From a virus (lineage: Duplodnaviria; Heunggongvirae; Uroviricota; Caudoviricetes), in IMG/VR virus record IMGVR_UViG_2859827302_000002: a stretch of 38,307 nucleotides of DNA; one strand, given 5' to 3'. This document shows, one piece after another, positions 29,775 through 30,116 of the stretch. The position numbers and the translations under genes were made by a program. The notes under the pieces were generated by a model, which was not told where the DNA came from, made no database searches, and saw only the letters and a list, made by a program, of their open reading frames with translations. How positions within the stretch are numbered: the stretch's first letter is position 1; each line of letters opens with the position of its first letter.

Positions 29775-29984
29775 AACATAAAAAAATCCCGCAGTGATCG
29801 CGGAGCTGCGGGGACAGACAAATGAAGATCAATGTTAAGGAGTTGTTTTTGTTACTCGGGCAAAAAAACACTAACGCAGCGAAATTATAAGCGCCACAGT
29901 CAGTGTGTGAAAATGTGAAGATATTCAGAATTTTTATGCCATTACCGGTTTTAACCAACAGGATTATCGGTGGGCATGAAAGAA

Positions 29985-30019
29985 AACCCCGGTATCTGCT
30001 GATACCGGGGTTTCTCTTT
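29985..30019 (+). terminator. strong intrinsic terminator inside the I-J intergenic insert
   Basis: Perfect 12-bp stem aaccccggtatc/gataccggggtt, 4-nt loop, followed by tttctcttt. Confidence 0.6.
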
Positions 30020-30116
30020 AGCATGGCAGAAATGTGTTTCATGCTTTTCGGGCGAAGGATATCCGACTTCTGTACGGAATGGCAAGTGGCGGTTAATTTA
30101 TTCAGGGGAAGGCTGT

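What the first reader, a model, noticed from the sequence alone, without database searches (positions are those of the whole stretch)
29775..30116. 340-bp AT-rich insert with a 22-codon ORF and a 12-bp perfect-stem terminator between tail genes I and J
In lambda-type tail modules I and J are adjacent. Here a low-GC segment separates them, holding a hairpin (cccgcag...ctgcggg), a short ORF (MKINVKELFLLLGQKNTNAAKL, 29822..29890) and a very stable hairpin plus U-run (29985..30019), followed by a good SD for J. A terminator upstream of J would need antitermination or could be an attenuator or small RNA; alternatively it is a scar of a lost insertion.
Basis: seen in the sequence. Interest (0 to 1): 0.45.

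Follow-up and report, generated by a model that had tools for sequence, protein, structure and literature searches.

The report
Antisense PasB small-RNA gene before J
The AT-rich DNA between tail genes I and J is mostly a known, unannotated prophage small-RNA gene (PasB) read from the opposite strand, followed by a strong terminator hairpin of a kind that sits in front of gene J in most lambda-like phages, so the finding is real but largely already explained.

Summary
In detail: a 342-bp low-GC spacer (29775-30116) separates I and J and contains both hairpins and the 22-codon ORF.

The left half (29775-29937) is the PasB small-RNA gene on the minus strand.
- The published PasB northern probe matches 29786-29808 exactly.
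On the minus strand that hairpin is PasB's terminator (CCCGCAG/CUGCGGG plus U7).
- PasB is an Hfq-dependent sRNA shown by northern blot and RIL-seq in EPEC E2348/69. I infer that the Sakai homologues are EcOnc22-24.
- The 22-codon ORF is the antisense image of PasB. It loses its start codon in 17 of 31 variants.

The right half (29938-30116) is a separate, nearly invariant module.
- Its 10-bp GC hairpin (29987-30010) has T-runs on both sides.
- It occupies the position of a plus-strand terminator-like hairpin present in phage lambda and in 75 of 86 other distinct I-J spacers. None of those reads as a terminator on the minus strand, and 53 of 75 loops are UNCG.
- Its function is inferred, not shown.

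Verdict: a known sRNA "moron" plus a family-typical pre-J terminator. Interest is low to moderate.

The parts
29094..29774 (+). Tail assembly gene I (226 aa), left border of the spacer
   Evidence: ORF. Pfam Lambda_tail_I, E=2e-16.
29780..29877 (-). PasB small-RNA gene. The predicted primary transcript is 98 nt, running 29877 to 29780. The published 83-nt PasB corresponds to 29862 to 29780.
   Evidence: The northern probe AATCCCGCAGTGATCGCGGAGCT equals window plus strand 29786-29808. Alignment to E2348/69 PP6 shows one substitution inside the RNA, at window 29836, which is RNA position 27. The transcription start is inferred from the -10 hexamer. The 5' end is therefore uncertain by about 15 nt.
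29780..29812 (-). PasB intrinsic terminator: stem 29812-29806 / 29794-29788, an 11-nt loop, then U7 (29786-29780), ending 5 nt from the I stop codon
   Evidence: Terminator scan, minus strand. The 7-bp stem and the U-run are invariant in 21 distinct RNA variants while the loop varies. RIL-seq lists a U-tract of 7.
29884..29911 (-). PasB promoter: -35 TTCACA (29911..29906), 16-bp spacer, -10 TATAAT (29889..29884)
   Evidence: 11 of 12 consensus match. Three promoter-like sites were found in 2 kb against 1.0 expected. The -10 is kept in the variants as TATAAT, AATAAT, GATAAT, TATCAT or GATAAA.
29912..29937 (-). Conserved AT-rich block upstream of the -35. It contains TGTGA (29914-29918), six variable bases, then TCAGA (29925-29929), which resembles a CRP site.
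   Evidence: Both half-sites are invariant in 31 of 31 distinct left modules, while the six bases between them have three forms. The block is also present in Stx2c phages. Its function was not tested.
29822..29890 (+). It is not a gene; it is the antisense image of PasB.
   Evidence: Start codon lost in 17 of 31 distinct variants, and ORF lengths of 12-41 aa with different frames in the rest. No Pfam hit.
29938..30116 (.). Right-hand module, which I call 'type A' (179 bp). It is a separate mosaic unit that other phages replace with a 92-102 bp 'type B' module.
   Evidence: At least 99% identical in 1442 of 1451 E. coli records, even where the PasB half is only 91% identical. Alignments with E2348/69 and Sakai diverge from about 29938 onward. 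Module census.
29936..29977 (+). Imperfect hairpin (ATGCC...GGCAT with an inner ACCGGU/AUCGGU stem) just before the strong hairpin
   Evidence: Fold of 29930-30019 on the plus strand: -42.6 kcal/mol, z -7.7. Function unknown.
29984..30019 (.). Strong hairpin with U/T-runs on both sides. It is a bidirectional terminator-like element in the position of the pre-J terminator.
   Evidence: Stem energy about -19 kcal/mol. A d'Aubenton-Carafa-type terminator score (d; above 0 means terminator-like) is +22 on the plus strand and +33 on the minus strand. One natural variant has a clean 47-bp deletion that removes it (L051).
30056..30085 (-). Weak promoter-like site (TTGCCA-18-TATCCT). With the hairpin it could give a minus-strand RNA of about 74 nt (30049 to 29976). 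This is hypothetical.
   Evidence: 9 of 12 consensus match. Fold -31.9 kcal/mol, z -7.3. No expression data and no sequence variation to test it.
30105..30112 (+). Shine-Dalgarno sequence (GGGGAAGG) for J
   Evidence: Read directly from the sequence.
30117..33590 (+). Tail tip gene J, right border of the spacer. It is interrupted by an in-frame TAG at 30471-30473.
   Evidence: The ORFs 30117..30473 and 30480..33590 share a frame. The Pfam FNIII-A_GpJ domain is split across the stop. The same codon is CAG in 74 related loci and CTG in one.

Best explanation
The spacer is a mosaic of two units inserted at the I-J junction of a lambda-like prophage.

(1) Left unit, 29775-29937: the gene for PasB, a 'moron' (an extra, self-contained gene with its own promoter and terminator).
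- It is transcribed antisense to the tail operon from its own sigma-70 promoter.
- It ends at the CCCGCAG/CUGCGGG-U7 terminator that abuts the I stop codon.
- PasB is made in the lysogen, is stabilised by Hfq, and base-pairs in trans with host and accessory mRNAs.
- The single-stranded stretch between the 5' U-run/A-run hairpin and the terminator is the likely pairing region. It is AACUCCUUAACAUUGAUCUUCAU, with a variable CUCCUU anti-Shine-Dalgarno-like part and a conserved UUAAUCUUC part.
- Its physiological targets are not established.

(2) Right unit, 29938-30116: J's leader and ribosome-binding site, preceded by a very stable hairpin with T-runs on both sides.
- On the plus strand this is the local version of a terminator-like hairpin that precedes J in most lambda-like phages.
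- RNA polymerase modified by the late antiterminator Q should read through it during lytic growth. Unmodified polymerase in a lysogen should stop there.
- On the minus strand, in this type-A version only, it would also stop transcription coming back from J before it reaches the PasB promoter.

What is shown and what is inferred.
- Shown elsewhere by experiment: the existence, size, Hfq dependence and 37 RNA partners of PasB in E2348/69.
- Shown here: sequence identity, promoter and terminator anatomy, the mosaic structure and the family-wide comparison.
- Inferred: the exact 5' end, expression in this host, and every function assigned to the right-hand hairpin.

Confidence is about 0.95 that the left unit is PasB and about 0.55 that the right-hand hairpin is a pre-J terminator or insulator. 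The overall figure is 0.8.
For: PasB identity.
- The published northern probe and coordinates (NC_011601 minus strand, 1466343-1466261, between E2348C_1436 and 1437) map onto window 29862-29780.
- There is one substitution, at RNA position 27. That is the position the 2026 preprint says distinguishes PasB from PasB-2.

Expression signals.
- An 11-of-12 promoter and a T7 terminator lie on the minus strand.
- The -10 hexamer, the 5' GCGUUA, the U-run, UUAAUCUUC and the terminator stem are conserved across 21 distinct RNA variants whose bodies otherwise diverge.

Experimental support from papers.
- Northern blot and Hfq-dependent stability.
- log2 fold change in the hfq deletion of -6.8 and -2.4, and 37 interactions, almost always as the second RNA in chimeras.
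- In Sakai, the Hfq-crosslinking peaks EcOnc22/23/24 lie in the I-J spacers of prophages Sp15, Sp14 and Sp11, antisense to the tail genes. By northern they are about 85 nt and are destabilised without hfq.
- After correcting the roughly +137 coordinate shift between the two Sakai genome versions, the peaks fall inside the PasB homologue.

Moron hotspot.
- Other phages carry antisense protein genes at the same place. Examples are sodC (L102, which runs into the PasB 3' half and terminator) and DUF1232 and DUF1883 proteins.

Pre-J terminator.
- Lambda has ACCGCC-UGCG-GGCGGU followed by UUUGUCAUUU in its 60-bp spacer.
- 75 of 86 distinct I-J spacers from two further clades have a plus-strand hairpin plus T-run with d>0. 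The count is 0 of 86 on the minus strand and 0 of 86 in shuffles.
- 53 of the 75 loops are UNCG, an RNA-specific stable tetraloop, when read on the plus strand.
- Stem changes include G-U intermediates that pair only on the plus strand: GCCGCC/GGUGGC and GUCACC/GGUGGC, and type-B C-G to U-G to U-A.
Against: - There are no expression data for this host or for any strain carrying the type-A module.
- The predicted 98-nt transcript is 15 nt longer than the 83 nt reported from coverage and northern blot.
- The PasB terminator stem never varies, so it gives no covariation, and the whole RNA does not fold better than shuffles (z -0.9).
- The type-A hairpin differs from the family pattern. Its loop is UGCU rather than UNCG, its T-run is interrupted (UUUCUCUUU), it lies 106 nt before J rather than 15-40 nt, and it scores higher on the minus strand.
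- The two single-sequence variants in the type-A module (L086 in the strong hairpin, L101 in the preceding one) would be U-G on the minus strand and C-A on the plus strand.
- A natural variant lacks the hairpin altogether (L051), so it is dispensable at least for carriage of the prophage.
Confidence: 0.8

Rival explanations
1. The type-A right module encodes a second, undescribed minus-strand small RNA of about 74 nt (30049 to 29976). It would lie in tandem upstream of PasB, and the strong hairpin would be its terminator.
For: - A promoter-like site TTGCCA-18-TATCCT lies at 30085..30056.
- The minus-strand reading of the hairpin has the better T-run (UUUUCUUUC; d +33 against +22).
- The predicted RNA has a 5' hairpin, an A-rich linker and a terminator, and folds at z -7.3.
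- The two rare variants in the type-A module (L086, L101) are tolerated only on the minus strand.
Against: - The promoter matches only 9 of 12 and has a poor -10.
- The U-run is interrupted after 4 U, whereas Hfq-dependent sRNAs usually have longer runs.
- No published sRNA maps here, and Rfam has nothing.
- The module is nearly invariant, so conservation cannot separate the promoter from its surroundings.
Confidence: 0.12
2. The right module, including the strong hairpin, is a functionless remnant of recombination between phages. It would persist only because it was recently spread together with J.
For: - It is nearly identical in 1442 records, which indicates recent spread rather than long-term selection.
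- The spacer is clearly mosaic, with breakpoints at the module borders.
- A deletion variant without the hairpin exists.
Against: - A hairpin plus T-run at this position recurs with unrelated sequences: type A, type B, lambda and at least a dozen further stems. That recurrence argues for selection on the structure.
- The hairpin is far more stable than chance.
Confidence: 0.15
3. One reading: a plus-strand unit made of the 22-codon ORF plus the downstream terminator. This would be a leader-peptide attenuator of J or a plus-strand small RNA.
For: The ORF and a plus-strand terminator-like hairpin are both present and in the right order.
Against: - The ORF start codon is lost in 17 of 31 variants and the frames differ.
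- There is no plus-strand promoter-like site in 29000-31000.
- The ORF region is fully explained as the antisense of a validated sRNA.
- The ORF and the hairpin belong to different mosaic modules that combine freely.
Confidence: 0.03
4. A type I toxin-antitoxin pair, with a small plus-strand peptide repressed by the overlapping antisense RNA (PasB).
For: A small ORF fully overlapped by an abundant antisense sRNA is the layout of hok/sok-like systems.
Against: - The peptide has no transmembrane-length hydrophobic stretch and no family match.
- It is not conserved.
- No plus-strand promoter was found.
- In RIL-seq, PasB behaves as a trans-acting sRNA with 37 partners.
Confidence: 0.02

Closest known systems
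PasB, 'pathogenicity-associated small RNA B' of EPEC E2348/69 (Pearl Mizrahi et al. 2021, PMC8550237; distribution in Zhu, Shabalina & Storz 2026 preprint, doi 10.64898/2026.05.13.724894)
   Same: - Same gene: exact probe match, one substitution in 83 nt.
- Same position, 5 nt after the I stop.
- Same antisense orientation.
- Same promoter and terminator.
   Different: - The window carries A rather than C at RNA position 27.
- Its J-proximal neighbour is the 179-bp type-A module rather than the type-B module of E2348/69.
- The gene is not in Rfam and is not annotated in RefSeq records.
EcOnc22/23/24 of EHEC O157:H7 Sakai (Tree et al. 2014, PMC4104026, Table S2)
   Same: - Hfq-bound RNA of about 85 nt, destabilised without hfq.
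- Encoded antisense in the I-J spacers of Sp15, Sp14 and Sp11.
- Same terminator stem, same 5' end motif and same UUAAUCUUC motif.
   Different: - The body is visibly diverged (the Sakai spacer aligned to the window only at about 80% identity or less) and 7 nt shorter, with CUCCAU in place of CUCCUU.
- It is paired with a type-B module.
- The equivalence with PasB is my inference from coordinates corrected for the genome-version shift. I did not find it stated in the papers I read.
AgvB/AsxR anti-sRNAs of EHEC prophages (Tree et al. 2014)
   Same: Short Hfq-binding sRNAs carried as cargo in lambda-like prophages and expressed in the lysogen. AgvB has a CA-rich target-mimic region, and PasB has AACAAAAACAAC.
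   Different: - They lie at the PR' moron site, not in the tail module.
- They are 51-60 nt, with a conserved 3' part (...UUGCCCGAACCCAUUCGGGCAUUUU) that is unrelated to PasB.
- The Rfam families AgvB and AsxR (accessions quoted) do not hit the window.
Morons of lambda-like phages (term of Juhala et al. 2000, as cited in PMC4104026)
   Same: Extra DNA between two late genes, with its own promoter and factor-independent terminator, absent from relatives such as lambda, and expressed from the prophage.
   Different: - The cargo is a non-coding RNA and is inverted relative to the late operon.
- Other phages carry protein morons at the same junction and in the same inverted orientation: sodC, DUF1232 and DUF1883.
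Intrinsic (Rho-independent) terminators inside Q-antiterminated late operons
   Same: A GC-rich hairpin followed by a U-run on the sense strand, in a transcript made by Q-modified polymerase. That such polymerase reads through terminators is established knowledge for lambda Q.
   Different: No termination or read-through has been measured for this element. The type-A version is bidirectional and lacks the UNCG loop typical of the other pre-J hairpins.

Membership tests
PasB sRNA | Sequence matches the validated E2348/69 RNA, including its northern probe | tested here: met
   The probe matches 23 of 23 at 29786-29808. There is 1 substitution over the 83-nt RNA.
PasB sRNA | Lies between tail genes I and J of a lambda-like prophage, antisense to them | tested here: met
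   Table S6 gives the orientation as '(> <) >'. In the window I and J are on the plus strand and the RNA signals are on the minus strand.
PasB sRNA | Own promoter, and an intrinsic terminator with a long U-tract | tested here: met
   TTCACA-16-TATAAT, and a 7-bp stem followed by U7. RIL-seq lists a U-tract of 7. These are predictions from sequence.
PasB sRNA | Transcribed, Hfq-dependent, and pairs with mRNAs | not testable with these tools
   Shown only in E2348/69 and, for the homologue, in Sakai.
AgvB/AsxR anti-sRNA | Conserved 3' region of about 42 nt, 51-60 nt in length, located at the PR' moron site | tested here: not met
   No Rfam hit at the gathering or E-value threshold. The published sequences and location both differ.
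Type I toxin-antitoxin | Conserved small hydrophobic toxin ORF with its own promoter, overlapped by an antisense RNA | tested here: not met
   ORF start lost in 17 of 31 variants. No plus-strand promoter. No family hit.
Intrinsic terminator (strong hairpin 29984-30019) | GC-rich stem-loop directly followed by a U-rich tract | tested here: met
   10-bp perfect stem at about -19 kcal/mol, with d +22 on the plus strand and +33 on the minus strand. My score uses modern folding energies, so the zero threshold is only approximate. The validated PasB terminator itself scores -15.
Intrinsic terminator (strong hairpin 29984-30019) | Causes transcript 3' ends in vivo or in vitro, and is read through by Q-modified polymerase | not testable with these tools
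   No Term-seq or reporter data are available for this sequence.
Conserved pre-J hairpin of lambda-like phages (a pattern seen here, not a named family) | Plus-strand hairpin plus T-run between I and J, usually with a UNCG loop, 15-40 nt before J | tested here: inconclusive
   Position, strand-compatible T-run and stability are met. The loop (UGCU), the distance (106 nt) and the bidirectionality differ from the other phages surveyed.
Moron | Self-contained transcription unit inserted between conserved late genes and absent from related phages | tested here: met
   The lambda spacer is 60 bp without PasB. The Enterobacter, Rahnella and Pantoea prophage spacers are 42-54 bp. PasB has its own promoter and terminator.

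The most novel reading that the evidence does not exclude
The hairpin plus T-run in front of J, usually with a UNCG loop, could be a previously unnamed regulatory element shared by lambda-like phages. It might act as a partial terminator or RNA-stability element that sets J dosage, or that keeps J silent in lysogens. It would also define the docking point for antisense cargo such as PasB, sodC and DUF1883. In this window its type-A version may additionally end a second, undescribed minus-strand sRNA.
Probability: 0.2. Interest if true: 0.55.

Novelty: already known. Interest (0 to 1): 0.3.

Why it matters
- PasB occurs in about 30% of complete E. coli genomes (1612 of 5426), yet it is absent from Rfam and from RefSeq annotation. 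Scans will therefore keep re-finding it as an odd AT-rich insert with a small ORF.
- Linking PasB to EcOnc22-24 joins two separate experimental data sets (EPEC RIL-seq and EHEC Hfq crosslinking) for an sRNA whose function is still unknown.
- The alignment shows which parts vary (the CUCCUU region) and which are fixed (UUAAUCUUC and the terminator). That can guide work on the pairing region.
- The I-J junction emerges as a hotspot for antisense cargo sitting just upstream of a conserved terminator-like hairpin. If that hairpin has a function, this is a testable feature of how tail operons in lambda-like phages are organised.

Tried and rejected
1. AgvB-like anti-GcvB RNA. This was my first guess, from memory and from the CA-rich stretch. 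I rejected it: AgvB lies at the PR' moron site, has an unrelated sequence, and gives no Rfam hit.
2. Rfam at the gathering and at permissive thresholds. Only chance-level hits fall in the spacer.
3. Other Sakai Hfq peaks.
   - EcOnc33 lies by the sialate esterase and lysis genes, and EcOnc54 between tail genes near an antirepressor moron. Neither is at an I-J junction.
   - EcOnc10-12 are HnrS, a different locus.
4. The Sakai ribosome-profiling paper on small genes. Nothing on this locus appears in the main text, and I did not open its supplements.
5. Covariation.
   - The PasB terminator stem is invariant, so it gives none.
   - RNAalifold predicts no other consensus helix.
   - The type-A module is too uniform to test.
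6. Search for other copies or distant relatives of the type-A module. None exist in the window apart from the hairpin's own palindrome, and none in the phage collection beyond 13 identical records.
7. The genome-contig scan with protein I gave only 12 loci. Three of them look like E. coli prophage sequence in unrelated assemblies.
8. Literature searches for an sRNA described at the I-J junction, or for a named lambda terminator there, found nothing.
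Full report
**1. The observation**

The window carries a lambda-like tail module on the plus strand.
- Gene I (29094-29774) matches Pfam Lambda_tail_I. Gene J starts at 30117 and has the full set of tip-attachment-protein-J domains.
- Between them lie 342 bp (29775-30116) with GC of 0.39-0.46, against 0.55-0.67 in the flanks.
  - the CCCGCAG/CTGCGGG hairpin (29788-29794 with 29806-29812);
  - the 22-codon ORF (29822-29890);
  - the hairpin CCCCGGTATC-TGCT-GATACCGGGG (29987-30010), followed by TTTCTCTTT;
  - a Shine-Dalgarno sequence 4 nt before the J ATG.
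- The second hairpin has 10 perfect pairs, or 13 counting the flanking A:T pairs. RNAs that include it fold far better than shuffles on either strand (z about -7).

**2. The left half is the PasB gene on the other strand**

A consensus scan found nothing promoter-like on the plus strand between 29000 and 31000. That predicts a minus-strand RNA of about 98 nt, from 29877 to 29780.

I first suspected AgvB because of the CA-rich stretch. The AgvB paper places AgvB and AsxR at the PR' moron site with an unrelated sequence, and Rfam gives no hit.

The match came from the EPEC RIL-seq study.
- Its Table S6 lists PasB on NC_011601 minus strand 1466343-1466261. It is 83 nt long, in prophage PP6, between E2348C_1436 and 1437, in orientation '(> <) >', with northern probe AATCCCGCAGTGATCGCGGAGCT.
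- That probe equals window 29786-29808 on the plus strand, so the RNA is on the minus strand.
- The E2348/69 locus lies between a tail assembly protein and gpJ. It aligns almost perfectly with the window from the end of I through about 29937.
- There is one substitution inside the RNA, at window 29836, which is RNA position 27. A 2026 preprint names position 27 as the difference between PasB and its variant PasB-2.

The experimental properties of PasB come from those papers, not from this window.
- A northern band of the expected size, and Hfq-dependent stability.
- Higher expression under the 'non-activating' growth condition.
- log2 fold changes of -6.8 and -2.4 in the hfq deletion.
- 37 RIL-seq interactions, almost always as the second RNA in chimeras, and a U-tract of 7.
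- Function is stated to be unknown.

**3. Link to EcOnc22-24 of EHEC**

Table S2 of the 2014 Hfq-crosslinking study lists EcOnc22, 23 and 24 in Sakai prophages Sp15, Sp14 and Sp11. They are homologous to each other, about 85 nt by northern, and destabilised without hfq. Fetching those places shows that each lies in a 240-bp spacer between the tail assembly gene and the host specificity gene, on the strand antisense to them.

The table uses the older Sakai sequence version, so I estimated the offset to the current version.
- AgvB1 is displaced by +139 to +143 at 1.94 Mb.
- The identical EcOnc10 and EcOnc11 copies give a summed shift of 275, or about +137 each, out to 2.23 Mb.
- With that shift, the EcOnc24 peak falls at L004 1132-1191, inside the PasB-like RNA at about 1117-1207.

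The Sakai spacers align with PasB. The terminator stem, the 5' end and the UUAAUCUUC motif are conserved, while the body is diverged. I therefore infer that EcOnc22-24 are PasB homologues. A 2021 review still lists their targets as unknown.

**4. The PasB family and the ORF**

I collected 31 distinct left modules from phage records, E. coli genomes and IMG/VR contigs. They contain 21 distinct RNAs.
- Conserved features:
  - an AT-rich block with invariant TCTGA and TCACA half-sites separated by six variable bases;
  - the -10 hexamer;
  - the 5' GCGUUA;
  - a U-run followed by an A-rich run, which pair in the minimum-free-energy fold;
  - UUAAUCUUC;
  - the 7-bp terminator stem with U7.
- Variable features: the terminator loop, the region after the U-run, and the CUCCUU stretch (also UUCCUU, CUCCAU, CUCCCU and UUAUCU).
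- The terminator stem gives no covariation because it never changes. The whole RNA is not unusually stable (z -0.9).
Its ATG is ACG or ACA in 17 of 31 modules. Where an ATG remains, indels give products of 12 to 41 residues that diverge after about nine codons. There is no Pfam hit.

**5. The right half is a separate module**

Alignments break at about 29938.
- The window, WCHEC000837, MS20657 and most IMG/VR relatives carry a 179-bp 'type A' module.
- E2348/69, Sakai, the PhiR12 and PhiR5 phages, Stx2c phages and O55:H7 carry a 92-102 bp 'type B' module with a different hairpin: CAGGCAYCC...GGRTGCCTG followed by TTGTTTTT.
- The two module types combine freely with different PasB alleles.
- Type A is at least 99% identical in 1442 of 1451 E. 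coli records, even where the PasB half is 91% identical. It therefore offers no comparative signal.
- It has no other copy in the window and no distant relative in the phage collection.

**6. A terminator before J is the norm**

Lambda itself has a 60-bp I-J spacer containing ACCGCC-TGCG-GGCGGT followed by TTTGTCATTT. Prophages of Enterobacter, Rahnella and Pantoea have spacers of 42-54 bp that consist essentially of a GC hairpin and T7 directly before J.

I then surveyed 160 IMG/VR loci from the lambda clade and the Pantoea-type clade.
- Among 86 distinct spacers, 75 have a plus-strand hairpin plus T-run with a positive d'Aubenton-Carafa-type score. None does on the minus strand, and none of the shuffled spacers does.
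- 53 of the 75 loops are TTCG, TCCG, TGCG or TACG, which are UNCG tetraloops when read on the plus strand.
- The stems differ between lineages: GCCACC/GGTGGC, GCTGCC/GGCAGC, CCCGC/GCGGG, GGGCGC/GCGCCC and CCGCC/GGCGG.
- Intermediates such as GCCGCC/GGTGGC and GTCACC/GGTGGC pair as G-U only on the plus strand. Type B shows the same pattern, with C-G in Sakai, U-G in PhiR12_2 and U-A in O55 and the Stx2c phage.
- Where spacers are long (423-851 bp), the extra DNA sits between I and this hairpin and carries minus-strand genes. These include a Cu,Zn superoxide dismutase that runs into the PasB 3' half and terminator, DUF1232 and DUF1883 proteins, and several ORFs without a family.

The I-J junction is therefore a hotspot for antisense cargo, and PasB is the RNA example.

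**7. How the type-A hairpin fits**

- It occupies the same place, downstream of the cargo and upstream of J, and it scores as terminator-like on the plus strand (d +22).
- It differs in several ways. It scores higher on the minus strand (d +33, tail TTTTCTTTC), its loop is TGCT, its plus-strand T-run is interrupted, and it lies 106 nt before J.
- My score is only roughly calibrated. The experimentally supported PasB terminator scores -15.
- The few sequence variants are no help.
  - MS20657 improves the plus-strand T-run to TTTTCTTT.
  - L086 (in the strong hairpin) and L101 (in the preceding hairpin) each have one change that would be U-G on the minus strand and C-A on the plus strand.
  - L051 has a clean 47-bp deletion that removes the hairpin.
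- A weak minus-strand promoter-like site (TTGCCA-18-TATCCT) could drive a 74-nt RNA that ends at the hairpin. I hold this as a rival at about 0.12.

**8. Most likely mechanism**

- In the lysogen, host RNA polymerase transcribes PasB from its own promoter toward I and stops at the U7 terminator. Hfq stabilises the RNA, which pairs in trans with mRNAs. This is established in EPEC and inferred here.
- During lytic growth, the Q-modified polymerase of the late operon passes through the PasB gene in antisense and through the strong hairpin into J. This rests on established knowledge of lambda Q and was not tested here.
- In the lysogen, the hairpin would stop any unmodified polymerase entering from either side. 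That would keep J untranscribed and shield the PasB promoter.
- A cis-antisense effect of PasB on the late mRNA is possible but untested.

**9. Verdict**

The finding is real. Its main component is an already described sRNA gene that annotation pipelines and Rfam miss. The 'terminator before J' is a family-typical feature rather than an anomaly. The genuinely open items are the function of PasB, the role of the pre-J hairpin, and whether the type-A module makes its own RNA.

Noticed in passing
window 30471-30473: J carries an in-frame TAG (amber) at codon 119, which splits the FNIII-A domain. The same codon is CAG in 74 related loci and CTG in E2348/69. This copy of J is therefore a nonsense mutant, or the base is a sequencing error, and the prophage may be tail-defective.
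   Followed up: partly
window 29914-29929 (plus strand TGTGA-AGATAT-TCAGA): A CRP-like inverted repeat lies about 8 bp upstream of the PasB -35. Both half-sites are invariant in 31 of 31 variants, while the six bases between them vary. Its centre is near -44.5 from the predicted start, which is not the classical -41.5. In three lineages the proximal -35 is degenerate while this site is kept. PasB is reported to be higher in LB than in glucose-rich DMEM.
   Followed up: partly
L102 and L026 (I-J spacer of 851 bp): A minus-strand Cu,Zn superoxide dismutase gene (Pfam Sod_Cu, E=4e-32) replaces the PasB promoter and 5' part. It runs into the remaining PasB 3' half and terminator. PasB sequence may therefore serve there as a sodC 3' UTR and terminator.
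   Followed up: partly
L112-L271, L021-L028 and L029 (I-J spacers of other lambda-like phages): A plus-strand hairpin plus T-run directly before J is present in 75 of 86 distinct spacers and in lambda itself. 53 of the 75 loops are UNCG and the stems differ between lineages. It is not annotated in the lambda GenBank record. Long spacers carry antisense morons, including DUF1232 and DUF1883 proteins, upstream of it.
   Followed up: yes
L051 (IMG/VR contig 2671180417_000014): A type-A spacer with a clean 47-bp deletion between GAAA repeats that removes exactly the strong hairpin.
   Followed up: no
window 2180-2710: Three tRNA genes (2180-2252, 2263-2336, 2353-2426) are followed by the sRNA STnc100 (2505-2710, 143 bits). 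The 2026 preprint relates STnc100 to the prophage sRNA PasD.
   Followed up: no
window 33658-34257 and 34316-35881: Downstream of J there is a 199-aa ORF with a signal-peptide-like N-terminus, which I take to be a Lom-type outer-membrane protein from its position and sequence. It is followed by a 521-aa ORF with long collagen-like Gly-X-Y repeats, which I take to be a tail fibre. Neither was run against a family library.
   Followed up: no
L017, L019, L026 (genome contigs): Near-identical E. coli prophage I-J sequence appears on short contigs in assemblies labelled Streptomyces flavalbus, Parendozoicomonas haliclonae and a Clostridiales MAG. This is most likely contamination or mis-binning.
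   Followed up: no
Sakai NC_002695.2 compared with Table S2 of PMC4104026: Coordinates in the 2014 EcOnc table are about 135-143 nt lower than in the current RefSeq version between 1.94 and 2.23 Mb. Taken at face value, the peaks appear to sit on the wrong part of each spacer.
   Followed up: yes
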